NCBI RefSeq assembly: GCF_049337375.1
Contig: NZ_JBMPIV010000001.1
Length of the DNA stretch: 64,000 bases
Direction: 5' to 3' (one strand)
From: Nannocystis pusilla
GTDB lineage: Bacteria > Myxococcota_A > Polyangia > Nannocystales > Nannocystaceae
Shown one piece after another: positions 7,301 to 41,900 of this stretch. Numbering within the stretch: position 1 is the first letter of the stretch; each line of letters begins with the position of its first letter. The notes beneath the pieces are model-generated. The model was not told the DNA's origin. It made no database searches and was given only the letters and a program-made list of their open reading frames with translations. The position numbers were made by a program, and so were the translations under genes.

Positions 7301-8173
7301 TCAGGACTTCAGCGGCTCGCGCGGAGCGACGATGTCGCGCGCGAGGCCGACGAGCGCGAGGCCGCGGATCATGAGGTAGGTGACATCGAGCTCGAACCAC
7401 CGCCGGCCGTGGGCCGCGGCGCGCTGGTGGGCGTGGTGGTTGTTGTGCCAGCCCTCGCCGAAGGTCAAAAGGGCCACCCACCAATTGTTGCGCGAGTCGT
7501 CGCGGGTCTCGTAGTTGCGGTATCCCCACCGGTGCGCGGCGGAGTTGACGAGCCAGGTCGCGTGATACGTGAAGACCAGGCGCACCGGGATGCCCCACAC
7601 GACCCAGCTCCAGCCCTGGCCGAGCCACGCCTCGCCGACGACGTAGAGCAGGACGGCCAGCACGAACTGCGGGATGTAGTGCCAGCGGTCGAACCACCGC
7701 ATCACCGGGTCGCGCAGGAGGTCGCGGGCGAACCCGCGCTCGGCGTCCTCGTCGGCGCGCATGAAGACCCACAACATGTGGGCCCACAACAGGCCGCGCC
7801 GCGGCGAGTGCGGGTCGTGCTCCTGGTCGGACCAGCGGTGGTGCAGGCGATGCTTGCCGACCCACAGCACCGGGCTGCCCTGCCAGCTCAAGGTGCCGAG
7901 CAGGACGATGACGTACGTCAAAAGGCGCGGGACCGCGAAGCTGCGGTGACACAACAGTCGGTGATACCCGAGGCAGATGCCGACGCCGCCGGCGAGCCAC
8001 CAGAGCGCGGCCGCGACGCCGAGGCCGCTCCACGAGAAGGTGAAGGGGGCCGCGACGCAGGCCAAGTGCATCAGCCCGGCGCCGATCACGTGACTCCACA
8101 TGAGTCCGCCGACTTCGGGCGAGCTGGTGGCCGGCGGAAGGACGGTATCTTCGACTTCGACTGCCGTGGACAA
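7301..8173 (-). CDS. Membrane fatty-acid (acyl-CoA/acyl-lipid) desaturase
   Basis: Three His boxes are present (HRLLCH, HRLHH, HNNHH) with hydrophobic segments, in a 290 aa protein. Confidence 0.85.
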   Translation of the reverse strand: MSTAVEVEDTVLPPATSSPEVGGLMWSHVIGAGLMHLACVAAPFTFSWSGLGVAAALWWLAGGVGICLGYHRLLCHRSFAVPRLLTYVIVLLGTLSWQGSPVLWVGKHRLHHRWSDQEHDPHSPRRGLLWAHMLWVFMRADEDAERGFARDLLRDPVMRWFDRWHYIPQFVLAVLLYVVGEAWLGQGWSWVVWGIPVRLVFTYHATWLVNSAAHRWGYRNYETRDDSRNNWWVALLTFGEGWHNNHHAHQRAAAHGRRWFELDVTYLMIRGLALVGLARDIVAPREPLKS

Positions 8174-8361
8174 GGCCTCCAGAGGCTACCAGCGGTGAGC
8201 GCAGGTCACAGCGGCCGGCCCGGGAGCGACGGTGCGCGTCGACGCACGTCGCCTCCTCCGCCCCTGCACCGAGGCCCGGGCTCGGCAGTGATGAGAGACC
8301 TCCGCCGGTCCCGCCGCCGATCGGGCCAGGTGGGCCGCGCCGGCGGGTTATTCTGCCGTCC

Positions 8362-14624: not shown

Positions 14625-14679
14625 GGGACATGTCCCCCGAGACCGGTGCTCAAGGGCATGGCTCCGGGGACATGTCCGA
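14625..14679. repeat. GGRCATGYCC palindromic repeats, 3 copies including the perfect GGGACATGTCCC
   Basis: Read directly: gggacatgtccc, gggcatggctcc, ggggacatgtccg. The last copy overlaps the 3' end of the methyltransferase gene. Confidence 0.75.
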
Positions 14680-15924
14680 CGCGTCAGCCTCGATCCGGAA
14701 GTAGCGGAAGCCGCCGCCGCCGGTCCAGCCGGCCGCCGCGGTGACGCCGCTGGGATCGCGGCCGTCGACGACCGCGCGCAGGCGCGGGGCGATCAGGGTG
14801 TCGCAGTGCTCGCCGCGCTCGACGAGGATCCACCGCCGCCGCAGCTTGTGGGCGACCGCGCCGGTGGTGCCCGAGCCGGCGTAGACGTCGAGGACCCAGT
14901 CGCCCGGGCGCGTCGACAGCTCGAGCACGCGGCGCAGCAGGGCCTCGGGCTTCTTGCCCTTGGGGAAGGCGACGCCGCCCTCGTTGTGCAGGTTGTTGGA
15001 CAGCAGGTCGTCCCAGATGGTGGTGAGCGGCTCGCCGGCGACCCGCTGGCCGTCGATGAGCTTGAGCTTGGCGGCGTAGAAGAGGAGCCGCTCGCCGCGG
15101 ACGAAGTAGAAGTCGTCGTGGTCGTCGCGCTCCAAGCGGAGCACGACGTCGGGCTCGGCCTTCGAGCGGTCGATCATGGCCCGCGCGGCCGCGCTGACGG
15201 CGTTGTAGTCGGGCCGCGCGAGGCGGACGACGGCGTCGGCGTGGGCGAGCACGAATTCGTCGAGGCGCTCCGGCTCGGCCCGCGCGAGCCGCTGGGCCGC
15301 GCGCTCGCCCAGGCCGCAGGCGTCGGCGAAGGCGCGCATCAGGGTGACGAGCCGCCACTCGGCGTGCGGCGCGGCGCGGTCGACGATGAACTGGGCGTAC
15401 CGCGGGTCGCGCTCGCGGGCGGTGTACAGCCGCTGCGGGGCCCAATGCGCGCGGTCCTTGCAGTAGACGAGGACGAAGTTGGAGGTCGTGACGCAGCCGG
15501 GGTTTATCGCCTTGTGGCCGGTGGGCGCGCCCTGCTTGAAGGTGACGACCGAAACGCGGTTGGCCCGGCCGAAGATGTCGTCGAGCAATACGATCAGGTA
15601 GCCGAGCTCGTTGTCGTCGATGTGGACGAACAGGGTGCCGTCGGCGGCCAGCAGGTCGCGCAGGACCGTGAGGCGCGCGCGCATGTCGGCCAGCCAGCGC
15701 GCATGCTCGATGCCGTCGTCGTAGTGGGCGAAGGCGCGGCCGGTGTTGTACGGCGGGTCGATGTAGACGCAGCGGATCTTGCCGGCGAACTCGGGCCCCA
15801 GCGCGCGCAGGGCCGCGAGGTTGTCGCCGCGGATCAGGCGGTTGTCGTAATGGTCGCCCGCCACCTCGGGGCCGGCCGCGCGGTGGGACAGCGCGGGTGC
15901 CTCGACGAGGGGGCGCGGGTCCAC
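14650..15924 (-). CDS. Solitary beta-class DNA methyltransferase (N6-adenine or N4-cytosine; Type III Mod-like architecture)
   Basis: Motif IV (DPPYN) lies near the N-terminus and motif I (VLDVYAGSGTTGAVA) near the C-terminus, with a roughly 280-aa target-recognition spacer between them. No res or other restriction gene is adjacent. Confidence 0.8.
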   Translation of the reverse strand: MDPRPLVEAPALSHRAAGPEVAGDHYDNRLIRGDNLAALRALGPEFAGKIRCVYIDPPYNTGRAFAHYDDGIEHARWLADMRARLTVLRDLLAADGTLFVHIDDNELGYLIVLLDDIFGRANRVSVVTFKQGAPTGHKAINPGCVTTSNFVLVYCKDRAHWAPQRLYTARERDPRYAQFIVDRAAPHAEWRLVTLMRAFADACGLGERAAQRLARAEPERLDEFVLAHADAVVRLARPDYNAVSAAARAMIDRSKAEPDVVLRLERDDHDDFYFVRGERLLFYAAKLKLIDGQRVAGEPLTTIWDDLLSNNLHNEGGVAFPKGKKPEALLRRVLELSTRPGDWVLDVYAGSGTTGAVAHKLRRRWILVERGEHCDTLIAPRLRAVVDGRDPSGVTAAAGWTGGGGFRYFRIEADASDMSPEPCP

Positions 15925-15977: not shown

Positions 15978-16490
15978 TCAGGGGAACGTCAGCGCCACCT
16001 GGGCGGAGGCGCCGCGGCAGACCGGCTCGCAGCCGGGGCCGTTGGGCCGCGACTCGACGTAGGTGGGGCTGATGTTGCCGGAATAGAGGGTCTCCTCGCC
16101 GCGCAGGATCTTCAAATCGACCGCGGCGGGGCTGCTCGGGATCTGGATGTCCGCGAAGCCGTGCTGCTCGGGCGGAAGAGCGCAGCCGGACTCGCCGATC
16201 TGCACGCGGTCGGGGACGTCGCAGGTGAGCGAGGGGCCGGCGTCGCAGGCCTTGAGCGGCAGGGCGCCCTTGCAGGTGACGGGGACGCCGTCGAGCGCGA
16301 AGGCGAACGTGTAGTCGCCCGCCGGCCAGCCGGCGTTCGGCTGCAGCTCGATCCGCAGGCCGCCGATGCAGCCGATCTCGGTGCACACCTTGCCGCCGCC
16401 GCCGGGGTCGGTGGGCTCCACCTGGCCTTTGGAACATGCGCTGAGGAGCAGGCCGACGAGGAGGGGGACAGGGGCGCGGAGCCAGGGCAT
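15978..16490 (-). CDS. Hypothetical lipoprotein
   Basis: MPWLRAPVPLLVGLLLSACSKG is a signal peptide with lipobox. The listed start at 16520 is an alternative. Confidence 0.5.
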   Translation of the reverse strand: MPWLRAPVPLLVGLLLSACSKGQVEPTDPGGGGKVCTEIGCIGGLRIELQPNAGWPAGDYTFAFALDGVPVTCKGALPLKACDAGPSLTCDVPDRVQIGESGCALPPEQHGFADIQIPSSPAAVDLKILRGEETLYSGNISPTYVESRPNGPGCEPVCRGASAQVALTFP

Positions 16491-16570
16491 GCCGGAGCTT
16501 GGCACGAGTCGCGGCGTCACGCACGCGCGCGAGGCTTTACAGCCGCCGGCCCGGCCCGTAGCCTGCGGGC

Positions 16571-17641
16571 GTGTCGCCCGTGTTCGCGCTGATCGCCCTG
16601 TACGGGCTGGTGTTCGTGCTCCACCTGATCGTGCCGGCCCGCCGCGTGACCGGCTACGTGCGCGACGAGGCCACCGGCGCGCCGCTCCGCTACCGCCTCA
16701 ACGGGGTGCGAGTGATGGCGCTGACTGTGGCGCTGTACTTCGTGGCGGGGGCGACCGGCCTCGTGCCGTGGGACTGGCTGTACGTCCACCGGGTGGAGAC
16801 GCTGGCGACCGCGTGCGGGCTGGGGCTCCTGTTCACTCTGGCGATCGTGCTGCCGGCGGCGCCGCGGCGCGGGCTCCTGGCCGATCTGTACCTCGGGCGG
16901 CTGGCCAACCCGCAATGGCTGGAGGGCCACGTCGACGCCAAGATGTTCCTGTATTTGATCGGGGCGGTGATGCTGCAGCTGAACCTGCTGTCGTTCGCGG
17001 CCCACCACCTGCTGCTGTACCCGAACGATCCGTCGCCGGGGGTGCTGCTGCACGTGGCGCTGTTCTCGTTCTTCCTGTGGGAGTACCTCAACTTCGAAGA
17101 GGTCCACCTGTACACCTACGACTTCGTGGCGGAGCGCGTCGGCTTCAAGCTCGGGTGGGGCTGCCTGACGTTCTACCCGTTCTTCTACGCGGTCGGGCTG
17201 TGGATGACGGCCGCGCTGCCGAACCCGCACACGCCGGCGCCGCTGCTGGGCCTGTGCGCGCTGCTGTTCTTCACCGGCTGGATGCTGGCCCGCGGGGCCA
17301 ACATGCAGAAGTTCTGGTTCAAGACGCAGCCGGAGAAATTTGCGTTCGGCACCATCCAGCCGGAGGTGCTGAGCGACGGGGAGAAGCAGATCCTGGTGAA
17401 CGGCTTCTGGGGGCTGTCGCGGCACATCAACTATCTGGGCGAGATCACGATGGCGACGGCGCTGGCGCTGTCGCTCGGCCACCCGGGCGAGCTGGGGCCG
17501 TGGCTGTACCCGCTGTATTACCTGGTGCTGCTGGTGCCGCGGCAGATCGACGACGACCGCCGCTGCCGCGCGAAGTACGGGGCGCTGTGGCAGCAATACG
17601 AGCGACGGGTGCGCTGGCGGATCGTGCCCGGGATCTATTGA
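16571..17641 (+). CDS. Sterol reductase family protein (ERG4/ERG24/DHCR7/LBR family)
   Basis: The C-terminal signature LVNGFWGLSRHINYLGE...RCRAKYGALWQQYERRVRWRIVPGIY closely parallels the DHCR7/ERG24 C-terminus (GFWG..RH.NY.G....RC..KYG..W..Y...VPYRLLPGIF). It is a polytopic membrane protein of 356 aa. Confidence 0.8.
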   Translation: MSPVFALIALYGLVFVLHLIVPARRVTGYVRDEATGAPLRYRLNGVRVMALTVALYFVAGATGLVPWDWLYVHRVETLATACGLGLLFTLAIVLPAAPRRGLLADLYLGRLANPQWLEGHVDAKMFLYLIGAVMLQLNLLSFAAHHLLLYPNDPSPGVLLHVALFSFFLWEYLNFEEVHLYTYDFVAERVGFKLGWGCLTFYPFFYAVGLWMTAALPNPHTPAPLLGLCALLFFTGWMLARGANMQKFWFKTQPEKFAFGTIQPEVLSDGEKQILVNGFWGLSRHINYLGEITMATALALSLGHPGELGPWLYPLYYLVLLVPRQIDDDRRCRAKYGALWQQYERRVRWRIVPGIY

Positions 17642-17668: not shown

Positions 17669-18109
17669 TCACCTGCCGGGCAGGCAGGTGCCGGCTGGCA
17701 GCCAGCCGTCCGCATTCGCCGTCAGATCGCCGAGCTCGCGGCCGTCGAGCGTGAGGCGCACGCGCTCGCCGGGCGCCATGCGATCGAGGGCGCAGGTGGT
17801 CCGGCTCGGGAAGCATTCGTCGCAGATCGCCGTGCTGGGCATTCGCTCGAAGGCGAGCCCTATCGCGTCACCGCGGCGAGAGATCTGGCAGGCGAATGGC
17901 TCGCCGCAGGTGCAGTCGAACTCCGCCATCAGCCCGTGACGCTCCGAGGTGGCGACGACGCACAGGCGCTCGGGCTGGGTGGTGTTCGGCGGGAGCGGCG
18001 ATGCAGGCCGCTCGGGGGTGGTGTTCGGCGGAGGGGCCGCGGTCGCGGGCGGCTCCGGGGTTTCGGGGCGGCACGCGAGGAGGAGCAGGGCGATGAAGCA
18101 GGGGCGCAT
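17669..18109 (-). CDS. Hypothetical Cys-containing lipoprotein
   Basis: MRPCFIALLLLACRPETPEPP is a signal peptide with lipobox, in a 146 aa protein. Confidence 0.45.
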   Translation of the reverse strand: MRPCFIALLLLACRPETPEPPATAAPPPNTTPERPASPLPPNTTQPERLCVVATSERHGLMAEFDCTCGEPFACQISRRGDAIGLAFERMPSTAICDECFPSRTTCALDRMAPGERVRLTLDGRELGDLTANADGWLPAGTCLPGR

Positions 18110-18244
18110 CGCCGACTTTACGTCTGCGACGCGCCCGGCTTACAGCTGCGTCGCGAGGGCGGTCGCCCGCTCGACCGACCGGCGCTCGCTCCTCGTGCGA
18201 TTCGCAGCGCCGAAGTCGACGGCTCCTCGGAGCGGCTGTATCGC

Positions 18245-18766
18245 TCAGGGGGCCTGCAGCTGGCCCATGAGCCAGTAAGGGCCGACGCAGGCGGCGTCGA
18301 GCGGCGCCTTCAATTGCTTGCGCAGCGCGTCGGTCAGCTGGACCTGGCCGCCGCCGGTGCGCAGCGGCTCGCCGACGCGGGCGACCACCTTGCCGGTGCT
18401 GTCGACGATCTCGAGGCGGTCGCCAGTGCGACGCGCGCTGTAACCCGGCTGCCAGATCAGCAGGTGACCCGGCTGCTTGCCGTCGGGGCTGACGCGCAGG
18501 CAGCCGGACTGCTCGATCAAGGTGCCCGAGAGCAGGGCTTCCATGAACGCGTTGCTGGGCTCGCGCAGCTCCGTCAGGACGGGGATCGATCCGGCCGATG
18601 CGGGGGGCTGCGCGGCGGGCTCGGGCGCGGCTGCGGGCGCAGGTGCGGATGTGGGTGCGGGAGCTGGCGCGGGCGCGGGCGCGGGCGCGGGCGCCGCGGG
18701 CGTCGGCCCTGCTGTATCGGGGTGGCAAGCGAAGAGGGACAAGCAAAGAGCGAACAGGCGCATCGG
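18245..18766 (-). CDS. Hypothetical lipoprotein with a (PA)n low-complexity linker
   Basis: The start is MRLFALCLSLFACHPD, followed by APAPAPAPAPAP. The upstream part of the listed ORF is discarded. Confidence 0.5.
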   Translation of the reverse strand, partial: PMRLFALCLSLFACHPDTAGPTPAAPAPAPAPAPAPAPTSAPAPAAAPEPAAQPPASAGSIPVLTELREPSNAFMEALLSGTLIEQSGCLRVSPDGKQPGHLLIWQPGYSARRTGDRLEIVDSTGKVVARVGEPLRTGGGQVQLTDALRKQLKAPLDAACVGPYWLMGQLQAP

Positions 18767-19255
18767 CGACCGTACGCTGGCGATGCGCCCGGGCTTACAC
18801 CCTCGTCGGTGCAGGGACACGCGATCGCAGTCTCGTCAGGGGCCCACGGATGATCCACGTCGGGCTTCGCCGCGTGACGGACGAGGTCGCGAGGGTCGCC
18901 CAATGTTCGCGGGGAAGATTGGCATGAGCGTGGAATCAGCGAGGCTCCTTGTCTCGCTCGCATCATCGGTAATTTTTTGCGGAGCCCAGGCGGCTTCGTG
19001 AACGCGCGGTGAAGTTGCGCTTTCGCAGCGGGGCCGAGCCCTGAAGGCCTTCGCGCGGGGCTCGGGCCGGGGAACCCCGCGCGGAGGCGCGGGTGCTCGC
19101 GCGGACCGCGTGTGTCGTGACGAGGTTCGGCGGCCTCGTCACGGGGCGATGCGCAGTGCGCCGCCGGGCGCAGGCAGGTCGTCACGCGGAGCGATCGATC
19201 GCGGCAGCGCGGCGCGAACACGTCGGCTTGACGCCCGCGATCGGGCCTGGATAGC

Positions 19256-20800
19256 GTGACCGACGGGATGGAAGCTTTCGTGAGAGACCTCGTATTTCGC
19301 CGCTTCGCGCGGCTCTGTCTGCTCTTGTCGGTGAGCGGTTGCGTGTGGACGCCGAACAGCCGCACGTCGCACGAATCCAGCGCCGCGATCTCGATGCAGG
19401 GCTATTCGGGCGGGTCGGGCTCGACGGTGCGGATCCTGGCGAGGAACTGGGACACCGGGGCGTTCGACGAGCTGGCGACGACGACGGCGAGCACCACCGC
19501 GTCGTTCACCGACCCGGCGCTCTACTCGTGGGCCAAGTCGCTGACGCCGCTGGCGAAGTACTGGCGGCCGACGCAGGCCGGTTGCTCGGCGGGGCGCGCC
19601 GAGCTGCGCGTGACCATCGATGACGATCAGCTCAAGACGTTCACGACGCCGGCCGGGCAGTGCGCGTTCGATCGCGTCCTCGGCGGCGAGCACCCGGTCT
19701 CGGCCGGCAACGCGTGCTCGGACGGCGACGAGGTGATCCTGTTCGACAACAACGGCACCTGCGGGACGGCCGAGACGGGCGGGCTGACGACGGTTTTGGG
19801 GCCGATCACGGGCCCTTACAACGGCGCGTCGGTGACGTGGGAGGTCGTCAGCTATCCGGTGCAGGGCAACACGATCTACGGGCTCATCTGTCGCCCGAGC
19901 GCAGCCGGGGCGCATCCGGTGCAGATCTTCAACCACGGCGGGTGGTTCGGCCTCGGTTGGGGCAACGAACCGCAGGGCTGCATGGCGTCGGCGGCGAAGG
20001 GATGGGTCGTGGCGATGTCGACCTACCGCGGCGAGCGGCTGTACCTCGGGCCAGGTTATGAGTGGGTCTCGGGCGGCAGCGTCGAGCTGTGCAACGGCGA
20101 GGTGACCGATGTCCTGCGGCTGACCGATCTGGTGCTGGCCAAGTCGTACGCCGATTCGTCGAAGGTGCTGATGCACGGGCTGTCGCACGGCGGCTGCATC
20201 ACGACGCGGGCGGTGCAGCGCGGGGCGCCGGTGCAGGCGGCGATCGACGTCGCCGGGCCGAGCGAGTGGGCGTCGCTGCACGCGCTGCTCGGCGGCTGGC
20301 TGGTCGGCGAGCTGCCGACCGATCCGGCGACGACGCCGTTCCCCGATTTGATGGAGGATTGGGTCGGCGACCCGGCTTCGGTGCCGCACGCGTACGAGTG
20401 GCGCTCGAGCAAGTTCGTCGCCGAGGACCTGGCGGTGCGCACCGACGTCAAGTACCTGCGCATGCAAGGAGTGGCCGATACGATCGTGCCGCCGGGCCAC
20501 GCGTGCAAGCTCATGAAGGCGGCGTTCGGCGCCTCCGGCAGCCAGAACTGGCACTTCAACAATGCCGCCGGGGTCACCGCGACGGCGCCGGTCGGCTGCA
20601 CGGCCACCGACGCGAGCCTGTCGTGGCAGAGCGCCGCCAAGCCGACGACGAGCTGGCCGGGCAACCATTACGTGTTCGTCTACGACGCATTGCCCCACGC
20701 GGTGGTGCCGGGCGACGGCACGCCGGTCGCGGTGGTGAACGCGTTCGTGGCCGACTACAACAACTTCGTGAATGCGCTCGGCTGGGGCGTGGTGTACTGA
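19256..20800 (+). CDS. Secreted alpha/beta-hydrolase (S9 peptidase / dienelactone-hydrolase-like) lipoprotein
   Basis: Nucleophile elbow GLSHGG, signal and lipobox LLLSVSGC, 514 aa. Confidence 0.65.
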   Translation: MTDGMEAFVRDLVFRRFARLCLLLSVSGCVWTPNSRTSHESSAAISMQGYSGGSGSTVRILARNWDTGAFDELATTTASTTASFTDPALYSWAKSLTPLAKYWRPTQAGCSAGRAELRVTIDDDQLKTFTTPAGQCAFDRVLGGEHPVSAGNACSDGDEVILFDNNGTCGTAETGGLTTVLGPITGPYNGASVTWEVVSYPVQGNTIYGLICRPSAAGAHPVQIFNHGGWFGLGWGNEPQGCMASAAKGWVVAMSTYRGERLYLGPGYEWVSGGSVELCNGEVTDVLRLTDLVLAKSYADSSKVLMHGLSHGGCITTRAVQRGAPVQAAIDVAGPSEWASLHALLGGWLVGELPTDPATTPFPDLMEDWVGDPASVPHAYEWRSSKFVAEDLAVRTDVKYLRMQGVADTIVPPGHACKLMKAAFGASGSQNWHFNNAAGVTATAPVGCTATDASLSWQSAAKPTTSWPGNHYVFVYDALPHAVVPGDGTPVAVVNAFVADYNNFVNALGWGVVY

Positions 20801-20806
20801 TTCGCG

Positions 20807-21613
20807 TCAGTCCCGGGCGTGGAGGCGGGCGGTCTGCGAGCCCATGAGGGCGACCGCCCGCCGGCGCGGGAACAGGCGCCCGAGGACGAACGCGGCCAGC
20901 TTGTTGAGGCCGCCCGGGACGGCGCTCGGCGGGCCGCCCAGCGCCTGCAGGGCCTCGGCGACGACGGCGTCGGGCGTCATGGCGCGCGGGCCGTCGGGGC
21001 CGCTCGAGCGCTCGAAGCCGGGTGTCCTGGTGGCGCCGGCGCAGCAGACGAGGACGTCGACGCCGCGCGGGCCGAGCTCGTACCACAGCGCCTCGCCCAG
21101 CGAGAGGTTGAAGGCCTTGGTGGCGCCGTAGGTGGCGACCAGCGGCGAGCCCCAGAAGGCGGTGAGCGAGGACATGAGCAGCAGGCCGCCGCGGCCGCGC
21201 CGCACGAGGCGCTCGCCGAACACGTGGGCGGCGATCAGCGGGCCGCGGCAATTGACGTCGACGATCTTGAGCTTGTCGGCCAGCGGGACGTCGAGGAACG
21301 GGCCGATCCGCGAGAGCGCGGCGTTGTAGACGCAGAGGCCGACGTCGAGGCCGTCGCTGACGCGCGCGAGCTGCTCGGCGAGGTCGGGGGCGGCGAGGTC
21401 GAGGGCGGCGGTGCGGACGTCGACGCGCGCGCGCAGCGGGGCGGCGACGGCCTCGAGGGCGTCGGCCCGGCGCGCGAGCAGGAGGAGGTTGAGGCCGCGA
21501 TCGGCGAGGCCGCGCGCGAAGGCGGCGCCGAGGCCCTCGGAGGCGCCGGCGACGACCGCCCAGGGGCCGTACTTGTGGACGAAGGCGGTGCGATCGGAGG
21601 TGCTGGTCACGCG
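20807..21613 (-). CDS. Short-chain dehydrogenase/reductase (SDR)
   Basis: Rossmann motif VVAGASEGLG, YxxxK (YGATK) and NAALS. The start was trimmed to GTG at about 21613. The longer ORF runs into an intergenic palindrome and yields the artefact 'MSFKTCPERH'. Confidence 0.7.
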   Translation of the reverse strand, partial: RVTSTSDRTAFVHKYGPWAVVAGASEGLGAAFARGLADRGLNLLLLARRADALEAVAAPLRARVDVRTAALDLAAPDLAEQLARVSDGLDVGLCVYNAALSRIGPFLDVPLADKLKIVDVNCRGPLIAAHVFGERLVRRGRGGLLLMSSLTAFWGSPLVATYGATKAFNLSLGEALWYELGPRGVDVLVCCAGATRTPGFERSSGPDGPRAMTPDAVVAEALQALGGPPSAVPGGLNKLAAFVLGRLFPRRRAVALMGSQTARLHARD

Positions 21614-21698
21614 TGCCCAGGAGACCACGAGGGGCCGCCGCGGGCAAGGGGGCGCGGCCCTCGACCGCGCCGGGGAGCGGCGGCGAGGATGCCTCTCA

Positions 21699-35829: not shown

Positions 35830-36978
35830 TTACGTCTTGCGGCCGGTCTTGTAGCGCGGGTTGCTGTCGTGCCACTCGAACGCGCCGCCCATCCAGGCCC
35901 GCAGGGCGCGCAGGAACCGCTGCAGCTCGACGCTGGGGACGGCCTGCAGCTCGCGGTGGCTGGCCTCGAAGTCGCGGACGAGGTCGTTGTGCAGCTGGAC
36001 GGTGACCTCGGTCGCCTCGTCGATCGAGCAGCCGCGATCGGCCTTGACCTGCAGGACCATGTTGCACGGCGGCTTCGCGTCCTCGAGGTCCTTGGCCACC
36101 GAATAGAGGTCGTTGACGAGGACGACCGCGGTGCCGGCCAGGAACGCGGCGCGGCGGATCCGCGCGTCGTAGAAGAGCTCGGCGGGCAGGCGGTAGCCGC
36201 CGATGACGTCGCACAGCGTCATCGAGGTGTAAAAGCTGTCGTGCTGGCGCGCGGCCAGGTACTTCCACGCGGGCGGGTACTCGCCGGTGTGCCGCCACGC
36301 CGCGTAGGCGCTCCACGACACGAACATGGCGAAGGTCGCGTAGCAGGTGCGCTGGACCTGCTCGTGCGTGGCGTAGCGGCCCATGTGCTCGAGGCCCGAG
36401 CGCAGGGCGACGAGCACGCGCTCGGCGTCGATCGCCTGCTCGAGCGGGACGCTGAACTCGCCGGCGCGCGGCAGCGGATCCATGGCCGCCATCGCCAGGA
36501 CGAGGCGCGGCGGCAGCTGCTCAGGGACCGCCCCGAGGGCGCTGTCGTCGGCGTAGTAGTCGTCGGCGGCCCACCACGCGGCGTTCATCTTGGCGCCGAT
36601 GAGCAGCCGATCCGGGTCGTCGCAATCGGCGTGGGTGAGCATCACCAGGCGGCCGAACCGGGTCTTGCGGATCTTGACGATCTCGTCGTCGTCGAAGCCG
36701 CACTCGCTCGCCCAGGCCGCGAGCCGATCGTCGACCTCGTCGGCCAGCGGCTCGTTGATGCGCTCGGTGATGGGGCAGTACAGCGGCGACGCGCTGCCGT
36801 CGCCCCACGACCGCCAGGCGTAGGCGGGATCGATCGCCGGCTGCGGCGGGTCGAGGTCGCCGGCGCGGGCCCGATTGAGCAGCTGCGCGAGGCGAGCGGC
36901 GTGCGTCCCCAGGCCGGTCGGTCCGGCGAGGAGGGCGGATACATCGTTCGGGTCCGTCTTGCGCTTGGCCTCAGTCAT
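35830..36978 (-). CDS. Type I terpene synthase, probably 2-methylisoborneol synthase (the cargo enzyme)
   Basis: DDYYADD is a DDxxD-type motif (compare DDCYCED in 2-MIBS). NDLYSVAKDLE is the NSE/DTE motif (compare NDLYSYTKE in 2-MIBS). The protein is 382 aa with a roughly 55-aa Pro-rich, disordered N-terminus. The adjacent GPP C-methyltransferase supports the MIB assignment. Confidence 0.8.
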   Translation of the reverse strand: MTEAKRKTDPNDVSALLAGPTGLGTHAARLAQLLNRARAGDLDPPQPAIDPAYAWRSWGDGSASPLYCPITERINEPLADEVDDRLAAWASECGFDDDEIVKIRKTRFGRLVMLTHADCDDPDRLLIGAKMNAAWWAADDYYADDSALGAVPEQLPPRLVLAMAAMDPLPRAGEFSVPLEQAIDAERVLVALRSGLEHMGRYATHEQVQRTCYATFAMFVSWSAYAAWRHTGEYPPAWKYLAARQHDSFYTSMTLCDVIGGYRLPAELFYDARIRRAAFLAGTAVVLVNDLYSVAKDLEDAKPPCNMVLQVKADRGCSIDEATEVTVQLHNDLVRDFEASHRELQAVPSVELQRFLRALRAWMGGAFEWHDSNPRYKTGRKT

Positions 36979-37069
36979 CGCTCGCCTCTGTTGCAGCGGC
37001 CGCCGAGATCCGGCGGAAAATTACGCAGGGCGGGAGGTATGATCATACCTCCCGCCGATGCCGTCATTC

Positions 37070-37936
37070 TCAGCGGACGATGCGGTCCGCGACGATGAGG
37101 AGGTAGTGGAAGCTGCCCTCCTTGTAGGCCCGCAGGAACGGATCCTCGACGCCGGTGGCCACCGAGCAGCGGGTCCGCAGCTCCCAGTACGGGATCGTGT
37201 CGGGGGTCAGGTCGGTGACCTCGATCGGCACGAGGTTGTTGGCCGCCATCGCCTTGAAGTACTCGCTGCGCGGGTGGATGTTGCAGATGTACTTGGCGTC
37301 GATCTCGCTGACCGCGCGCGAGCGGCCGCCGGTGATGTCGTTGTAGCAGCCGGTGATGCAGACGTAGCGCCCGCCGTCCTTCAGCAGCCGCGAGAACTCC
37401 GCGTACAGCTTGAACAGGTCGACGTACATCGTGGTCTCGTTGGTCCAGATGGCGTCGATCGAGCCGGTCTCGAAGCCGGTGTCGAGCATGTTGCGGAAGT
37501 GGTACTTCAGCTTGTCGGTGTAGCCGCGCTTGGCGGCCTGCTCGTTGGCGAAGCCGACCTGGTACTCCGAGATCGACACGCCGTCGACCTGGCACTTGAA
37601 TTTCTCGTGGGCCATGAGGCTGGTGCCGCCGCGGCCGGAGCCGGCGTCGAGCAGGCGGCTCTCGGGCTTGATCGGGCCGAGCTTCTTGAGCAGGTGCTCC
37701 GCCTGCGCGTGCTCGAGCCGGTGGAGCTCGCGGATGATCGCGTCGTCGCGCGTGGCCTCGGGCTGCTCCAGCACCGACCAATTGACGGCGCCGATCCCGT
37801 AGTGGTGGTGGTAGTAGCCGTCGACGTGGCCGAGCAGCAGATTGACGGGGTCGTTCTGGTTGGTGTTCCAGTAGTTGGCGACCGACTTCTGGTATTCGCT
37901 GCGCAGGACGCTATTGGCCGTGGTGGGCGTGTTCAT
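37070..37936 (-). CDS. Geranyl diphosphate 2-C-methyltransferase (SAM-dependent)
   Basis: The SAM motif LDAGSGRGGTS is present, the protein is 288 aa, and it sits immediately upstream of the terpene synthase in the canonical cnb-mtf-mibs arrangement. Confidence 0.8.
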   Translation of the reverse strand: MNTPTTANSVLRSEYQKSVANYWNTNQNDPVNLLLGHVDGYYHHHYGIGAVNWSVLEQPEATRDDAIIRELHRLEHAQAEHLLKKLGPIKPESRLLDAGSGRGGTSLMAHEKFKCQVDGVSISEYQVGFANEQAAKRGYTDKLKYHFRNMLDTGFETGSIDAIWTNETTMYVDLFKLYAEFSRLLKDGGRYVCITGCYNDITGGRSRAVSEIDAKYICNIHPRSEYFKAMAANNLVPIEVTDLTPDTIPYWELRTRCSVATGVEDPFLRAYKEGSFHYLLIVADRIVR

Positions 37937-38005
37937 GATCGTTGGTTCTCTTTCGTTGCACTGTGACGAGGCGCCCCAAGGTGGCGCCTGCCTCGGCGGG
38001 GGCGC

Positions 38006-39409
38006 TCAGCGCCCGATCTCGATGTTCTCCAGGATCCCGAGCGCGTCCGGGATCAGGACCGCTGCGGAGTAATACGTGCTGACGAGGTACGAGGCGACGG
38101 CTCGCTCGTTGGTGCCCATCCTGCGGACGGACAGGCCGGGCTCGCGCTCGTCGGGGAGGCCGCTGCGATACAGGCCGATGACGCCCTGGGCCTCCTGGCC
38201 GACGCGCATGGCGAGGATCGAGCTGGTCTGGGTGTCGGAGATCGGAATCTTGTCGCACGGCAGGATCGGCACGCCGCGCCAGCCGGCGACGATGGACCCC
38301 TCGTATTCGACGTTCGGCGGATCGAGCCGGCGGCGGGTGCACTCGCGGCGGAAGGCGGCGATCGTCCGCGGGTGGGCCAGGAAGAACCGGGTCTTGCGGC
38401 GCCGGCACAGCAGCTCGTCCATGTCGTCGGGCGTCGGCGGGCCGCTGCGGGTGCTGATCCGCTGCTTGTAGTCGGCGTTGTGCAGGAGGCCGAAGTCGCG
38501 GTTGTTGACGAGCTCGTGCTCCTGCCGCTCGCGCAGGGCGTCGATGGTCAGGCGCAGCTGCTCCTCGAGCTGGTCCATCGGGTCGTTGAACAGGTCCGAC
38601 ACCCGTGAATGGAGCTGCAGGATGGTCTGCGCGAGGCTCAACTCGTACTCGCGCGGCGAGGCCTCGTAGTCGACGAAGGTGCCCGGCAAGGTGACCTCGC
38701 CGTGGTGGCCCGCGGTCAAGCGGATGGCGGCCTGGCCGTGCTTGTCCTGCGGGGTCTTCAGCAGCTCCTTGTAGCGCTCGACGTGGGCGCGCAGCGCGGC
38801 CGAGCGGCCGATCAGCTCCTCGAACACGGCCTGGGGCAGGGCGAGGACGATGCACGGGGTGATCGCCTTGACGCTGTAGTCCCAGGCGTCGTCGTCCTGC
38901 ACGAGGGCCTGATCGCCGAAGTGCGCGCCGTCGGCGAGCACCTCGAGCCTGGCCTCCTCGCCGTAGGGGCCCTGGCCCAGCTTGTCGGCCTTGCCGTGGA
39001 CCAGCAAGTACACGTGGTCGGCCGGCTTGCCGCGCTCGGCGATGAGCTGGCCCGGCTTGAACTCGCTCTGCACGAACCGGCTGGCCAGGTGCGAGAGCAC
39101 CTCGTCGTCGGCAAATCCGCGCAGGAGCGGCAGCTCGCCGAGCTCGGCCGGGATCACCTGAGCTTTGGCGCCGATGTTGGTAAATTCGATCCGCCCGTCC
39201 CCGACCGCGACGCTCATGCGGCGATTGACGCGGAACGTGCCACCGGTGACGTCGACCCAGGGCAGCGAGCGGAGCAGCCAGCGAGGCGTGCGCCCCTGGT
39301 TCTGCGGCGGCGTCTTGGTGGTGGTCGCCAGCTGCCGCGCGGCCCGGGTCCCGAGGCTCATCGGCTGCTGCCCGTCGTCGTCACGGCCGGACTTCTCGAA
39401 AATCGACAT
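38006..39409 (-). CDS. Cyclic-nucleotide-binding-domain protein of the Family 2B encapsulin shell type ('cnb'), paralog 1
   Basis: 467 aa. The N-terminal half contains a cNMP-binding-like domain ([15 protein letters not shown]...). The C-terminal half is homologous to the upstream paralog, with long identical blocks such as TFVDYE.SPRE.ELS.AQT.LQ.H.RV.DLFNDPM and [13 protein letters not shown]. It lies in an operon with the GPPMT and terpene synthase genes. Confidence 0.7.
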
Positions 39410-39488
39410 GTCATCGTCTCCAGGCTGGCATCACGGACGGAGGCGCCCCGGGCCGCGAGGACCGGAGCGCCCATGGTGCGACGAGGCG

Positions 39489-40886
39489 TCAGTCGGCGCG
39501 GCCGATCTCGACGCTCTCGAGGATGCCGAGCGCGTCCGGGATCTGGACGGCGGCCGAGTAATAGAGGCTGACCAGGTACGAGATGATCGCCTTCTCGTTG
39601 ATGCCCATGAAGCGCACCGACAGGCTCGGCTCGATCTCGTCGGGGATGCCCTTGTGGTGCAGGCCGATGACGCCCTGGTTCTTCTCGCCGACGCGCATCA
39701 GCAGGATCGAGGTGGTGCGCGTGTCGGAGATCGGGATCTTGTTGCAGGGGAAGATCGGGACGCCGCGCCACGACGGGACGTGATGGCCGCCCAGGTCGAT
39801 CGGCGTCGGGTAGATGCCCGCGCGGTTGCACTCGTGGCCGAACGCCGCGATGGTCCGCGGGTGGGCGAGGAAGAAGGCCGGCTCCTTCCACACCAGCGCC
39901 AGCAGGTTGTCCATGTCGTCCGGCGTCGGCGGGCCGCTGCGGGTGTGGATCCGCTGCTTCAGGTCGGCGTTGTGAAGCAGGCCGAACTCGTGGTTGTTGA
40001 TGAGCTCGTGCTCCTGGCGCTCCTTCAGCGCCTCGACGGTCAGGCGCAGCTGCTCCTGCGTCTGGTTCATCGGGTCGTTGAACAGGTCGGCCACGCGCGT
40101 GTGGACCTGCAGGACGGTCTGGGCGACGCTGAGCTCGAACTCCCGCGGCGAGGTCTCGTAGTCGACGAAGGTGCCGGGCAGCACGGGCTCGCCCGAGTGG
40201 CCGGAGGCGACCTCGATCGCGGCCTGGCCGCTGTTGTCCTGCTTCTTCTGCGAGCGCGCCTTGAACTCGTCGACGTGCTTGCGCAGCGACGGGTGCTGGG
40301 CGACGAGCTCCTCGAAGGACGCCTGCGACAGCGTCAGGACGGTGCCGGCGGTCACCGCCTTGGCGGTGAAGTCCCAGTAGTCCTGCGACTCGAGGATCGC
40401 CTGGTACGAGTAATGGTCACCGTCGGCCAGGGTCTCGAGGACGCTCTCGTCGCCGTACTTGCCGGTGCCGATCTTGTTGACCTTGCCGTGGGCGATGAGG
40501 ACCATCTCGTTGGCCTCGTTGCCCTTCTGCGTCAGGACGTCGCCCGCCTTGAACTCCTTCTGCACGAATCGACCGGCGAGGACGTTCAGCACCTCGAGGT
40601 CCTCGTAGCCGCGGAACAGCGGCAGCTCGGTCAGCTCCAGCGGCACGACCTGGATCTTGGCGCCGGTGTTGTAGAAGGTGACGCGGCCGTCGCCGACGGC
40701 GTAGCTCAGGCGACGATTGAGGCGGAAGACGCCGTTGACGTGCACCCAGGGCAACAATTTGAGCAGCCAGCGGGACGAGATTCCCTGCATCTGCGGCGGG
40801 GACTTCGTCGTCGTGGCGAGCTGGCGCGCTGCAGCCGTCGAGAGGCTGGTCTGCTGATCATTTCCCGGCTTTCCTGCGATCGACAT
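39489..40886 (-). CDS. Cyclic-nucleotide-binding-domain protein of the Family 2B encapsulin shell type ('cnb'), paralog 2
   Basis: The start was re-set to MSIAGKPG (ATG at 40886) by alignment with the paralog's N-terminus MSIFEKSG...[15 protein letters not shown]. The protein is 465 aa with a cNMP-binding-like region ([18 protein letters not shown]). Confidence 0.7.
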
Positions 40887-41900
40887 GACTATCCTTTTCA
40901 CGGGCAGCTCTGCTGCCGTTTCCAAATTCTGCTCGACGGAGGGCCGTGTCGGCGAAAATCGGCCCTTCGCGGTTCGAGCTCGCGGGCGGAGGTTACGCTC
41001 CGTGATCGCGAGGCGTCAAGACAATTTCGGGGAACGAAGATTAATTAAACGATGCATTCGTGGCTGTGGAATGCGCGACCCAGCGCGCGGAGGGCCAGGA
41101 GAACCGCGCTGCGCCGGGTCGCGCGATTCGAAGCGAGTCCCGCACTGCCATGCAGGAAATGATGCGTGTTCTATTCGCGACCCGGTGCTGCGATGTAACC
41201 CGGAGTGCGCAGAGGGCAAGAGGAGCGGCGGAAAGTGGCGATTCCGATCGGCGACTGATTCGCAGCGCCGGTGAAATGCACATGGTCGGCGGCGCCGCGG
41301 GAGAGTTCGGAAAAGGCGTGACGGCGGTCTGCGGCGATTCCCGCGCCGCGCAAACCCGCACGCGGCCCGCGGGCAGGCAATGGCCATTATCGTCGCGCGG
41401 CAATGCACCGTCCGTGGAATGCGACGGCGCGGGCCCGCGCTGTCGCATCGCTGCGCAACGCCGCGCCAGGGCGCGTGAGCACCGGCAGTACGCTGTTCCC
41501 GCGGCGGTCGCGATCTCCTTTATTAAGGTCGCGGGCAGGTGCGACGAGACGCGGGCGCGGGCGAGCCGGGCGCGGGTCCGCAAGTCGGCCGGAGGGCCGG
41601 GTGCGCATTTGCGAGGCCGACGCGACGGGCGCCCCGCCGATGGGCCCGCGGGCCGGGCGCGTGGTCGAGGGCCGCTGCGGCGCGGCGAGTGCGGGCGCAC
41701 GGACCCGGAGGGCGAGGTCGACAGGCTATCATTGCAATCGGGCAAGGGCCGCCGACCTCGACCGCGAGGCCCCATTGGCAATGGGCGGATCGCGGCCGGC
41801 GAGGAATGCGTCATCGCTGCGATGGGGGCGCGGCGCGAGGCCGATTGCGGGGAGCGGCCGAACGCCGCACGGTACGGCGTTCGGCAGGAAGGACGGGCGA
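40887..41900. other. About 1 kb non-coding leader/promoter region upstream of the encapsulin-MIB operon, with lower GC, short direct repeats and palindromes
   Basis: Only Arg-rich spurious ORFs are found here. Features: an AT-rich core (aagattaattaaacgatgcattcg), GGAATGCG x3, the palindrome CCATTGgCAATGG, and a terminator-like hairpin GCCGAACGCCGcacggtaCGGCGTTCGGC at 41858-41887, just downstream of the gene ending at 41901. Confidence 0.35.

What the first reader, a model, noticed from the sequence alone, without database searches (positions are those of the whole stretch)
16571..17641. Bacterial homolog of eukaryotic sterol reductases (ERG4/ERG24/DHCR7 family) as a stand-alone gene
The C-terminal 80 aa (LVNGFWGLSRHINYLGE...RCRAKYGALWQQYERRVRWRIVPGIY) carry the hallmark sterol-reductase signature. 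Sterol synthesis is rare in bacteria but known in some Myxococcota. A lone Delta14/Delta7/Delta24-type reductase suggests either a sterol pathway elsewhere in the genome or modification of another polyene lipid. It is divergently paired with a lipoprotein gene, and no other sterol genes (oxidosqualene cyclase, C-4/C-14 demethylases) are in the window.
Basis: partly seen in the sequence, partly recalled or inferred. Interest (0 to 1): 0.55.

Follow-up and report, generated by a model that had tools for sequence, protein, structure and literature searches.

The report
Nannocystis sterol-reductase family gene
This is a real, intact membrane reductase gene of the sterol-reductase (ERG4/ERG24) family in a Nannocystis genome; the genus is already known to make sterols and the gene is already annotated, so the finding is largely ordinary, although the gene belongs to an untested branch of the family that is usually paired with a small dehydrogenase gene.

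Summary
The ORF at 16571-17641 (+, 356 aa) is real. It matches Pfam ERG4_ERG24 (E=4.6e-46), and its predicted structure superposes on the bacterial delta14-sterol reductase MaSR1 (TM 0.82). The window comes from Nannocystis (97-98% aa identity to N. pusilla and sp. RBIL2). Nannocystis is a classic sterol producer whose sterol genes are published as scattered across the genome. Orthologs are already annotated 'delta14-sterol reductase' or 'ergosterol biosynthesis protein'.

Three points need correcting.
- The gene is not the only family member: N. pusilla has a second paralog that is closer to the eukaryotic enzymes.
- It is not truly stand-alone. A conserved short-chain dehydrogenase (SDR) gene accompanies it in 35 of 58 bacterial loci across six phyla. 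In this window the SDR lies 3.2 kb downstream.
- It sits in a separate clade (100% bootstrap) from every anchored delta14-reductase. In that clade the proposed catalytic Tyr/Asp pair is Phe/Glu. The clade is common in bacteria with no adjacent sterol genes.

Which double bond the enzyme reduces has never been tested. My best guess is the delta14 step of Nannocystis sterol synthesis. Interest is low to moderate.

The parts
16571..17641 (+). ERG4/ERG24-family membrane reductase gene, 356 aa, short 'F/E-type' subfamily
   Evidence: ORF. Pfam PF01222 E=4.6e-46. 4QUV E=7.8e-34. Model pLDDT 88.7 and TM 0.82-0.83 to 4QUV. 92-98% aa identity to six Nannocystis genomes.
16874..16918 (+). Variant of sterol-reductase signature 1 (LLADLYLGRLANPQW). 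The conserved Asp105 and Asn-Pro are kept; Gln115 replaces the usual Arg.
   Evidence: Alignment to MaSR1. Column table: NPQ in most bacterial short forms, NPR in most others. Coordinates.
17063..17101 (+). Transmembrane segment FSFFLWEYLNFEE. Phe168 occupies the position of the proposed catalytic Tyr241 of MaSR1 (Tyr257 of yeast ERG24). An invariant Tyr172 lies one helical turn later.
   Evidence: Gap-free alignment to 4QUV and 9L5R. Residue roles from PMC12489058. Phe168 and Tyr172 are invariant in 25 subfamily members. Clade-wide pattern.
17291..17323 (+). RGANMQKFWFK. Asn244, Gln246, Lys247 and Lys251 align with MaSR1 Asn316, Gln318, Lys319 and Arg323 (cofactor-pocket region).
   Evidence: alignment. 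These residues are invariant. The equivalent yeast ERG24 residues (Asn332, Lys335, Arg339) are listed as likely cofactor-binding in PMC12489058.
17393..17443 (+). Sterol-reductase signature 2 (LVNGFWGLSRHINYLGE). Asn287 corresponds to the NADPH-contacting MaSR1 Asn359 (LBR Asn547). Glu291 replaces the proposed catalytic Asp363.
   Evidence: alignment. PMC4951196 for N359 and R395. PMC12489058 for D363. Clade pattern.
17537..17581 (+). C-terminal PRQIDDDRRCRAKYG. Arg324 corresponds to MaSR1 Arg395 (LBR Arg583, NADPH affinity). Asp328, Asp329, Cys332 and Tyr336 are conserved.
20807..21628 (-). Partner classical short-chain dehydrogenase/reductase. It is convergent and lies 3.2 kb downstream. The likely start is GTG at 21628 or 21610, giving 267-273 aa like the orthologs. 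It has the glycine-rich motif AGASEGLG, the ARR motif after beta-2 and the YxxxK motif.
   Evidence: Pfam adh_short E=2.3e-26. Best NCBIfam matches are below cutoff: 7beta-HSDH and mycolate reductase. An orthologous SDR lies within 3.3 kb of the reductase in 35 of 58 bacterial loci. The SDR and reductase overlap by 4 nt in L059 and L060. Start-codon analysis.

Best explanation
The gene encodes an NADPH-dependent integral-membrane reductase with the MaSR1/ERG24 fold. It saturates one carbon-carbon double bond of a sterol made by Nannocystis' own sterol pathway, whose genes are dispersed across the genome. The most likely reaction is reduction of the delta14(15) bond left after CYP51 removes the C-14 methyl group: 4,4-dimethylcholesta-8,14-dienol type to the delta8 sterol. 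Hydride would come from NADPH held by the conserved Asn244/Lys247/Asn287/Arg324 pocket. Protonation would come from a variant acid pair (Glu291/Tyr172) instead of the usual Asp/Tyr. Shown here: family membership, fold, an intact cofactor pocket, the organism, and conservation of the gene. Inferred: that the substrate is a sterol, that the bond is delta14, and that the linked SDR takes part by reducing a keto group on the same lipid.
For: Family and fold. NADPH-pocket residues are conserved and invariant in the subfamily. The closest characterised relatives are all delta14-reductases: MaSR1 at E=7.8e-34, the plant FK cluster at 32-33% identity and the fungal 9L5R chain. Automatic KO-style names on close homologs read 'delta14-sterol reductase'. 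The organism is Nannocystis. Its reported sterols (cholest-8-enol, cholest-7-enol) lack the C-14 methyl and the delta14 bond, so a delta14 reduction is required (PMC4919349; PMC2817430). CYP51, OSC and other pathway genes are present elsewhere and dispersed. The gene is conserved at 92-98% identity with local synteny in six Nannocystis genomes and has native GC3. Lee et al. 2023 list N. exedens DSM 71 gene number 7995 as the 'C-14 reductase'. The ortholog here lies at 10.058 Mb of an 11.27 Mb contig. That fits roughly 1.26-1.28 kb per gene, which matches the roughly 50 genes I count in this 64 kb window. This mapping is an inference.
Against: A second PF01222 paralog in N. pusilla (K7C98_12900) is the better hit to human LBR, human DHCR7 and yeast ERG4, and could be the true C-14 reductase. 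Two papers name different N. exedens genes for this step. The proposed catalytic Tyr241/Asp363 of MaSR1 are Phe168/Glu291 here and throughout this clade. The clade separates from MaSR1-type, fungal, plant FK and Naegleria reductases with 100% NJ bootstrap. Close homologs (55-66% identity) occur in Acidobacteriota, Gemmatimonadota, Bacteroidota, Gammaproteobacteria, Actinomycetota and Spirochaetota MAGs. None of 63 loci has an OSC signature nearby, and the one nearby P450 is not CYP51. By contrast, C-14 reductases of non-myxobacterial sterol producers sit inside sterol gene clusters. No member of this clade has been assayed.
Confidence: 0.45

Rival explanations
1. The enzyme acts on sterols or steroids but is not the delta14 reductase. 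Together with the linked NADPH-type SDR it forms a two-enzyme module that saturates a double bond next to an oxygenated carbon. That would be an enone route, as in 3beta-HSD / 5alpha-reductase / 3-ketoreductase, or as in DHRSX/SRD5A3. Possible outcomes are a stanol or oxo-stanol nucleus in Nannocystis (nannosterols have a cholestanol core with a 7-ketone and a 15-hydroxyl) and modification of scavenged sterols in bacteria that do not make them. The other paralog would perform the delta14 step.
For: The SDR-reductase pairing is conserved in 35 of 58 loci, in six phyla and three gene arrangements, with 4-nt overlaps in two genomes. The SDR's best relatives, all below curated cutoffs, include 7beta-hydroxysteroid dehydrogenase, which is also the top PDB hit 5FYD/5GT9. 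The catalytic pair is changed to Glu/Tyr with Phe at the usual Tyr position. A second paralog is available for the delta14 step. The nannosterol structure comes from the PMC10152446 abstract. The clade is widespread without sterol clusters nearby. The DHRSX/SRD5A3 precedent is from my own knowledge.
Against: No biochemical data exist. All characterised PF01222 enzymes reduce isolated, not conjugated, double bonds (established knowledge of the family). The SDR matches are far below curated cutoffs, and mycolate reductase scores as well or better. The Acidobacteriota lineage and several other loci lack an adjacent SDR. I could not check whether the genomes carrying this gene lack OSC.
Confidence: 0.28
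2. The substrate is not a sterol at all. The SDR-reductase module would reduce a keto group and a double bond in some other membrane lipid, such as an isoprenoid alcohol, a hopanoid-like lipid or a long-chain keto lipid. That lipid would be shared by many aerobic environmental bacteria, and Nannocystis simply has the module too.
For: The phylogenetic spread is broad in phyla not known for sterol synthesis, and no sterol genes lie nearby. The SDR's top NCBIfam match is mycolate reductase, a lipid beta-keto reductase, below cutoff. Part of the family also matches DUF1295. In one gammaproteobacterial lineage the neighbours are an acyl-CoA dehydrogenase and a CoA-transferase.
Against: Every characterised PF01222 member acts on sterols. 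The eukaryotic members of this same clade come from sterol-making protists and chytrid fungi. The whole MaSR1 fold is retained. The acyl-CoA neighbours are confined to one lineage.
Confidence: 0.17
3. It is a DHCR7-type delta7 reductase or an ERG4-type delta24(28) reductase.
For: It belongs to the same Pfam family. The C-terminal '...RIVPGIY' ending resembles DHCR7/DWARF5 as I recall them, which is memory only and not evidence. E. salina is reported to have a separate 7-dehydroreductase homolog.
Against: No DHCR7- or ERG4-named protein appears among the 150 nearest representatives or the 120 best hits of a eukaryotic clade member. Lee et al. list no 7-dehydroreductase or C-5 desaturase for Nannocystis, and its C-24 reduction is assigned to a DHCR24-type gene. 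Nannocystis accumulates delta7 and delta8 monoenes, so no delta5,7-diene substrate is expected. I had no DHCR7 or ERG4 reference sequences for a direct tree.
Confidence: 0.06

Closest known systems
MaSR1, the delta14-sterol reductase of Methylotuvimicrobium alcaliphilum (PDB 4QUV)
   Same: Same Pfam family and same fold (TM 0.82-0.83 over the whole protein). The NADPH-pocket residues N359, R395, N316 and K319 are conserved. It is also bacterial.
   Different: Identity is only about 28%. MaSR1 has about 70 more N-terminal residues, one extra transmembrane helix. MaSR1 has Tyr241/Asp363 where this protein has Phe168/Glu291. MaSR1-type proteins form their own large bacterial clade, separated with 100% bootstrap.
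Plant FACKEL (FK) C-14 reductase, and eukaryotic ERG24/TM7SF2/LBR
   Same: FK has a similar length (369 aa), and it is the nearest named eukaryotic enzyme at 32-33% identity. Desmond & Gribaldo 2009 called the two Plesiocystis homologs 'FK orthologs'.
   Different: FK, the fungal 9L5R chain and the Naegleria protein carry Tyr/Asp at the proposed catalytic positions and fall outside this clade.
Putative 'C-14 reductase' of Nannocystaceae listed by Lee, Wei and Welander 2023, and ERG24 homologs in Wei et al. 2016 and Akone et al. 2023
   Same: Same genus and same family. This gene is probably the N. exedens entry in Lee's table, based on the position inference.
   Different: All those assignments rest on BLAST alone. 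The three papers point to at least two different loci. None of the papers I read notes the SDR partner or the Phe/Glu substitution.
Sterol reductases of intracellular bacteria (Coxiella, Legionella, Protochlamydia; DHCR7/ERG4-like)
   Same: They are bacterial members of PF01222 found in organisms that do not make sterols. This shows that the family can act on acquired sterols.
   Different: Those are described as recent transfers from eukaryotes and group with DHCR7/ERG4. This clade is large, mostly bacterial, and linked to an SDR.
Steroid 5alpha-reductases (SRD5A1-3), and the SRD5A3 + DHRSX (SDR) pair of dolichol synthesis
   Same: They share a core of six transmembrane helices and use NADPH. 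The precedent of a membrane reductase working with an SDR is from my own knowledge.
   Different: They belong to a different Pfam family. The Foldseek match is weak (E=0.014, TM 0.42). They reduce conjugated enones or enals, which has not been shown for any PF01222 enzyme.

Membership tests
ERG4/ERG24 sterol reductase family (Pfam PF01222) | Profile HMM match above the curated gathering score | tested here: met
   157.9 bits against a cutoff of 27, E=4.6e-46, profile positions 76-432.
ERG4/ERG24 sterol reductase family (Pfam PF01222) | MaSR1-type polytopic membrane fold | tested here: met
   Model pLDDT 88.7, pTM 0.89. Foldseek to 4QUV gives E=4.7e-17 and TM 0.82-0.83 over 359 columns. About nine long helices are predicted, so it lacks the equivalent of MaSR1 TM1.
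ERG4/ERG24 sterol reductase family (Pfam PF01222) | NADPH-pocket residues (MaSR1 N359 and R395, equal to LBR N547 and R583; also N316/K319) | tested here: met
   The corresponding residues N287, R324, N244 and K247 are present and invariant in 25 subfamily members.
ERG4/ERG24 sterol reductase family (Pfam PF01222) | Sterol-reductase signature motifs 1 (…LNPR) and 2 (…GWWGxxRHxNYxGD) | tested here: inconclusive
   Both motifs are recognisable but variant: …ANPQW and …GFWGLSRHINYLGE.
Delta14-sterol reductases (ERG24 / TM7SF2 / LBR / FK / MaSR1) | Proposed catalytic Tyr (MaSR1 Y241, ScERG24 Y257) and Asp (D363 / D374) | tested here: not met
   Phe168 and Glu291 occupy these positions here and across the clade. 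MaSR1, the 9L5R chain, plant FK and the Naegleria protein have Tyr/Asp. The catalytic roles of these residues are themselves only proposed, from models.
Delta14-sterol reductases (ERG24 / TM7SF2 / LBR / FK / MaSR1) | Groups phylogenetically with experimentally anchored delta14 reductases | tested here: not met
   In an NJ tree (249 columns, 200 bootstraps), the split separating this clade from MaSR1-type, 9L5R, FK, red-algal and Naegleria sequences has 100% support. Those sequences are still its nearest characterised relatives.
Delta14-sterol reductases (ERG24 / TM7SF2 / LBR / FK / MaSR1) | Reduces the delta14(15) bond of 8,14-diene sterols with NADPH | not testable with these tools
   This needs heterologous expression and GC-MS.
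Delta14-sterol reductases (ERG24 / TM7SF2 / LBR / FK / MaSR1) | Occurs in a genome that has OSC and CYP51, so the substrate is available | not tested
   I could not scan the genome. The literature reports OSC, SQMO, CYP51 and SdmA/B in N. exedens and N. pusilla. For the non-myxobacterial carriers of this clade the answer is unknown.
DHCR7 (delta7) and ERG4 (delta24(28)) reductases | Groups with DHCR7/DWARF5 or with ERG4 orthologs | tested here: inconclusive
   No sequence named DHCR7 or ERG4 appears among the nearest 150 representatives or the 120 hits of a eukaryotic clade member. I had no reference DHCR7 or ERG4 sequences to build an anchored tree.
Bacterial 8,14-sterol reductase (8,14-Bsr) | NTF2-superfamily soluble fold | tested here: not met
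   8,14-Bsr is an NTF2-family protein (PMC13277303). This protein is a polytopic PF01222 membrane protein.

The most novel reading that the evidence does not exclude
The short Phe/Glu-type reductase and its linked NADPH-type SDR form a two-gene module that I did not find described. The module is spread across at least six bacterial phyla, and relatives of the reductase occur in chytrids, an oomycete, a dinoflagellate and other protists. It would saturate a double bond adjacent to an oxygenated carbon of a sterol-like lipid by a keto/enone route. This would differ from the isolated-alkene protonation used by ERG24, DHCR7 and ERG4. It could account for stanol or oxo-stanol nuclei such as the nannosterol core, and for stenol-to-stanol conversion by environmental bacteria. 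It would also mean that 'ERG24 homologs' in MAGs are not evidence of sterol synthesis.
Probability: 0.2. Interest if true: 0.65.

Novelty: already known. Interest (0 to 1): 0.27.

Why it matters
Sterol synthesis in Nannocystis has been known since the 1980s, and ERG24-type homologs in this genus are annotated and tabulated. The useful by-product is a caution and a lead.

The caution: this gene's subfamily differs from validated delta14-reductases at the proposed catalytic pair, and it is common in bacteria where no sterol genes lie nearby. Counting such homologs as markers of bacterial sterol synthesis, as is done in biomarker and eukaryogenesis studies, may therefore over-call.

The lead: published tables for N. 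exedens disagree on which paralog is the C-14 reductase. The conserved SDR partner offers a concrete two-gene unit to test in the existing E. coli lanosterol/CYP51 expression system.

Tried and rejected
- Exact look-up of the window protein in public assemblies found nothing. I used the 90%-identity cluster members instead.
- The Rieske oxygenase next to the gene in a Nannocystaceae MAG (L055) looked like the sterol C-4 demethylase SdmA. It scores only 25.7 bits against the SdmA model (cutoff 600) and resembles carnitine/glycine-betaine monooxygenases. Rejected.
- The 'ERG27 analog' of Desmond & Gribaldo is a succinate-semialdehyde-dehydrogenase-like protein, not the partner SDR. No supplements are held for Hoshino & Gaucher.
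- 8,14-Bsr (J Bacteriol 2026) is an NTF2 protein and is unrelated.
- Other recurrent neighbours are generic or confined to one lineage: ABC ATPases, pheS, a luciferase-like monooxygenase, an acyl-CoA dehydrogenase, a CoA-transferase and a nitroreductase.
- I looked for reductase-SDR fusions in long eukaryotic members. Only one 785-aa protein has a partial Epimerase/3beta-HSD domain, and it may be a merged gene model.
- The P450 near the pair in an Acidimicrobiales MAG is CYP107/125-like, not CYP51.
- I tried to learn whether the functionally proven Phytophthora DHCR7 belongs to this clade. No sequences or supplements are held.
- A search with MaSR1 did not return a named Nannocystis paralog among the top 120 hits, so I never obtained the sequence of K7C98_12900.
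- Literature searches for the SDR-reductase module and for stanol-forming bacterial enzymes found nothing relevant.
- My recollections of human DHCR7, Arabidopsis FK and DWARF5 sequences served only as leads and are not counted as evidence.
Full report
**Observation.** Its third-position GC content (0.95) matches the surrounding genes. It matches Pfam PF01222 (ERG4_ERG24) at E=4.6e-46 and 157.9 bits, against a gathering score of 27, over profile positions 76-432. No NCBIfam model reaches E<=1. The best solved relative is 4QUV, the delta14-sterol reductase MaSR1 of Methylotuvimicrobium alcaliphilum (E=7.8e-34). A 592-aa eukaryotic delta14-sterol reductase chain (9L5R) follows. An AlphaFold2 model built on 25 homologs is confident (pLDDT 88.7, pTM 0.89). 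It superposes on 4QUV at TM 0.82-0.83 over the whole length. Steroid 5alpha-reductases are the only other hits, and they are weak. The divergent upstream ORF (15978..16520, -) has a signal peptide and an LSAC lipobox.

**Organism and what is already known.** A scan of one genome per species found the same protein at 98% identity in Nannocystis sp. RBIL2, 97% in N. pusilla Na p29, and 92-94% in N. punicea, N. exedens, N. bainbridge and N. radixulma. Members of its 90%-identity cluster are already named in public records: 'delta14-sterol reductase [Nannocystis exedens]' (WP_096332577.1) and 'ergosterol biosynthesis protein'. Nannocystis is a long-known sterol producer, making cholest-8-enol and cholest-7-enol (PMC4919349; PMC2817430). 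Genome mining of N. pusilla Na p20 and N. exedens has reported homologs of squalene monooxygenase, oxidosqualene cyclase, CYP51, SdmA/B/C, EBP and DHCR24. These homologs are explicitly described as scattered over the genome rather than clustered (PMC10152446 and its SI; PMC10202945 Supplementary Data 1). My Pfam scans of about 40 ORFs in the window found none of these genes. So the family call is right, and so is the guess of 'a sterol pathway elsewhere in the genome'. Neither is new.

**Not the only paralog.** The nannosterol paper lists one locus, K7C98_12900 on contig JAIRAU010000012, as the best hit for human LBR, human DHCR7 and yeast ERG4. The Na p20 ortholog of the window gene (MBZ5714107.1) lies instead on JAIRAU010000047.1. 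Nannocystis therefore has at least two PF01222 genes, and this one is the less eukaryote-like. Two other observations fit this:
- Wei et al. 2016 give Ga0008035_01127 as the N. exedens ERG24 homolog, whereas Lee et al. 2023 give Ga0008035_05937 as the 'C-14 reductase'.
- Desmond & Gribaldo found two FK-type copies in the relative Plesiocystis.

In N. exedens DSM 71, Lee's entry is gene number 7995. The window ortholog lies at 10.058 Mb of an 11.27 Mb contig. That corresponds to about 1.26 kb per gene, close to the roughly 50 genes I count in this 64 kb window. I therefore infer, without proof, that this gene is the one Lee et al. listed. All of these published assignments rest on BLAST only.

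**A distinct subfamily.** I mapped published functional residues onto the gap-free HMMER alignment with MaSR1.
- The NADPH-pocket residues are conserved. MaSR1 N359 and R395, equal to LBR N547 and R583 (PMC4951196), correspond to N287 and R324 here. N316/K319 correspond to N244/K247.
- The proposed catalytic pair is not conserved. MaSR1 Tyr241/Asp363, equal to Tyr257/Asp374 of yeast ERG24 (PMC12489058), is Phe168/Glu291 here. An invariant Tyr172 lies one helical turn after Phe168.

An exhaustive search of 1.84 billion cluster representatives found only 1,684 relatives at E<=0.001. In an alignment of the full-length ones, the Phe/Tyr/Glu pattern characterises a large clade. That clade contains:
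- the bacterial forms of about 356 aa;
- forms of 380-450 aa from chytrid fungi, the oomycete Aphanomyces, the dinoflagellate Polarella, the amoebozoan Phalansterium and marine protist transcriptomes;
- a member lying on a eukaryotic contig that also carries COX17, RRM and enolase genes.

MaSR1, the fungal 9L5R chain, the plant FK cluster (Apium 'delta(14)-sterol reductase', 369 aa) and a Naegleria protein all carry Tyr/Asp. In a neighbour-joining tree (249 columns, 200 bootstraps), the split between these anchored delta14-reductases and the Phe/Glu clade has 100% support. The bacterial short-form clade has 95.5% support. A search started from a chytrid clade member returned no protein named ERG24, TM7SF2, FK, DHCR7 or ERG4. 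After chytrids and protists it ran straight into the bacterial short forms at 41-43% identity. MaSR1-type proteins form a separate, also large, bacterial family that includes a Myxococcales MAG. I had no DHCR7 or ERG4 reference sequences, so their position relative to this clade is untested.

**A conserved partner gene.** I compared 58 bacterial short-form loci. An orthologous classical SDR (at least 38% identity to a reference partner over at least 180 aa) lies within 3.3 kb of the reductase in 35 of them.
- In Gammaproteobacteria, Gemmatimonadota, Actinomycetota and Spirochaetota MAGs, and in some unclassified MAGs, the SDR is immediately upstream on the same strand. In two large genomes its stop overlaps the reductase start by 4 nt.
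- In Nannocystaceae and other Myxococcota, and in Bacteroidota, it is convergent just downstream.
- In a Sandaracinaceae MAG it is downstream on the same strand.

Within Nannocystis the gap between reductase and SDR ranges from 88 bp to 3.2 kb, because small genes have been inserted. In this window the SDR is at about 20807-21628 (-), and 17669-20800 is the inserted material. The SDR has the glycine-rich motif, the YxxxK motif and an Arg-Arg after strand beta-2. From general knowledge of SDR cofactor preference, the Arg-Arg suggests NADPH use. Its best NCBIfam matches are mycolate reductase and 7beta-hydroxysteroid dehydrogenase, both far below their cutoffs. Its best PDB hit is the 5FYD/5GT9 chain, which I recall (not checked here) is the 7beta-HSDH of Collinsella. 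No other neighbour is conserved beyond single lineages. None of the 63 fetched loci carries an oxidosqualene-cyclase signature near the gene, and the one nearby P450 is not CYP51. By contrast, the C-14 reductases that Lee et al. list for cyanobacteria, actinobacteria and sponge-symbiont bins carry locus tags consecutive with OSC, CYP51 and SdmAB.

**Interpretation.** Several things are shown directly: a PF01222 membrane reductase with an intact NADPH pocket and the MaSR1 fold, native to a sterol-making genus, conserved across that genus, and genetically linked to an SDR. The substrate is inferred.

I rank the delta14 step of Nannocystis sterol synthesis first (confidence 0.45), for these reasons:
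- the only characterised relatives are delta14-reductases;
- the known sterol products require exactly this one PF01222-type reaction;
- this gene is probably the one already assigned to that step.

The main rival (0.28) is a different sterol or steroid double-bond reduction carried out together with the SDR, with the other paralog performing the delta14 step. The changed catalytic pair, the SDR linkage, the second paralog and the wide distribution away from sterol clusters all favour this rival. A non-sterol lipid substrate (0.17) and a DHCR7/ERG4-type role (0.06) remain possible.

**Verdict.** The finding is correct but essentially already known, so its interest is low to moderate (0.27). 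Two residual points are worth keeping: the subfamily has never been assayed, and the published tables disagree on which paralog is the C-14 reductase. The conserved SDR-reductase module, which I could not find described in the searchable literature, is the most novel reading that the evidence does not exclude.

Noticed in passing
window 35830-41015 (- strand): This stretch encodes a family-2 terpene synthase (35833-37020), a SAM methyltransferase (37073-38005) and two SrpI-like family-2 encapsulin shell proteins that each carry a cNMP-binding domain (38009-39430 and 39492-41015; PF19307, E about 1e-133). It looks like a 2-methylisoborneol-type terpene cluster packaged with family 2B encapsulins. 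From my own knowledge, Nannocystis is a known 2-MIB/geosmin producer.
   Followed up: no
window 17669-20800, compared with L001-L006 and L057: The gap between the reductase and its partner SDR varies from 88 bp (N. radixulma, N. pusilla Na p20) to 3.2 kb (this window, N. pusilla Na p29). Here it holds two small ORFs with no Pfam match that look lipoprotein-like (17669-18109 and 18245-18820, - strand) and an S9-family peptidase (19256-20800, + strand). This points to recent insertions into a formerly tight gene pair.
   Followed up: partly
literature: N. exedens Ga0008035_01127 versus Ga0008035_05937: Wei et al. 2016 and Lee et al. 2023 name different N. exedens genes as the ERG24/C-14 reductase homolog. 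Akone et al. 2023 use one N. pusilla locus (K7C98_12900) for ERG24, DHCR7 and ERG4 alike, and that locus is not the ortholog of the window gene.
   Followed up: partly
P0455-P0574 (hits to MaSR1): MaSR1-type reductases (about 400-430 aa, 61-67% identical to MaSR1) are numerous in metagenomes: 1,834 hits at E<=1e-20. They include a Myxococcales MAG and a Terriglobia MAG, so the validated delta14-reductase type is also far more widespread in bacteria than the few cultured sterol producers suggest.
   Followed up: no
P0211 (785 aa, metagenomic representative): In this protein the reductase domain, with a disrupted C-terminus, is followed by a partial Epimerase/3beta-HSD-type extended-SDR domain. 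It is either a real fusion or a merged gene model. It is the only such case among ten long clade members.
   Followed up: no
window 7304-8185 (-) and 14650-15924 (-): A small PF00487 fatty-acid-desaturase-family gene and an N6/N4 DNA methyltransferase lie upstream of the reductase. Both families also occur in the same relative positions in N. pusilla Na p20 (L057), so local synteny is conserved within the genus.
   Followed up: no
L010, L012, L015, L024, L046 (marine Gammaproteobacteria MAGs): In this lineage the SDR-reductase pair sits between an MFS-like membrane protein, an acyl-CoA dehydrogenase and a family-III CoA-transferase upstream, and a nitroreductase downstream. The family names are my reading of the sequences and were not profile-tested. 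This is possibly a lipid-catabolic neighbourhood, but it is confined to one clade.
   Followed up: partly
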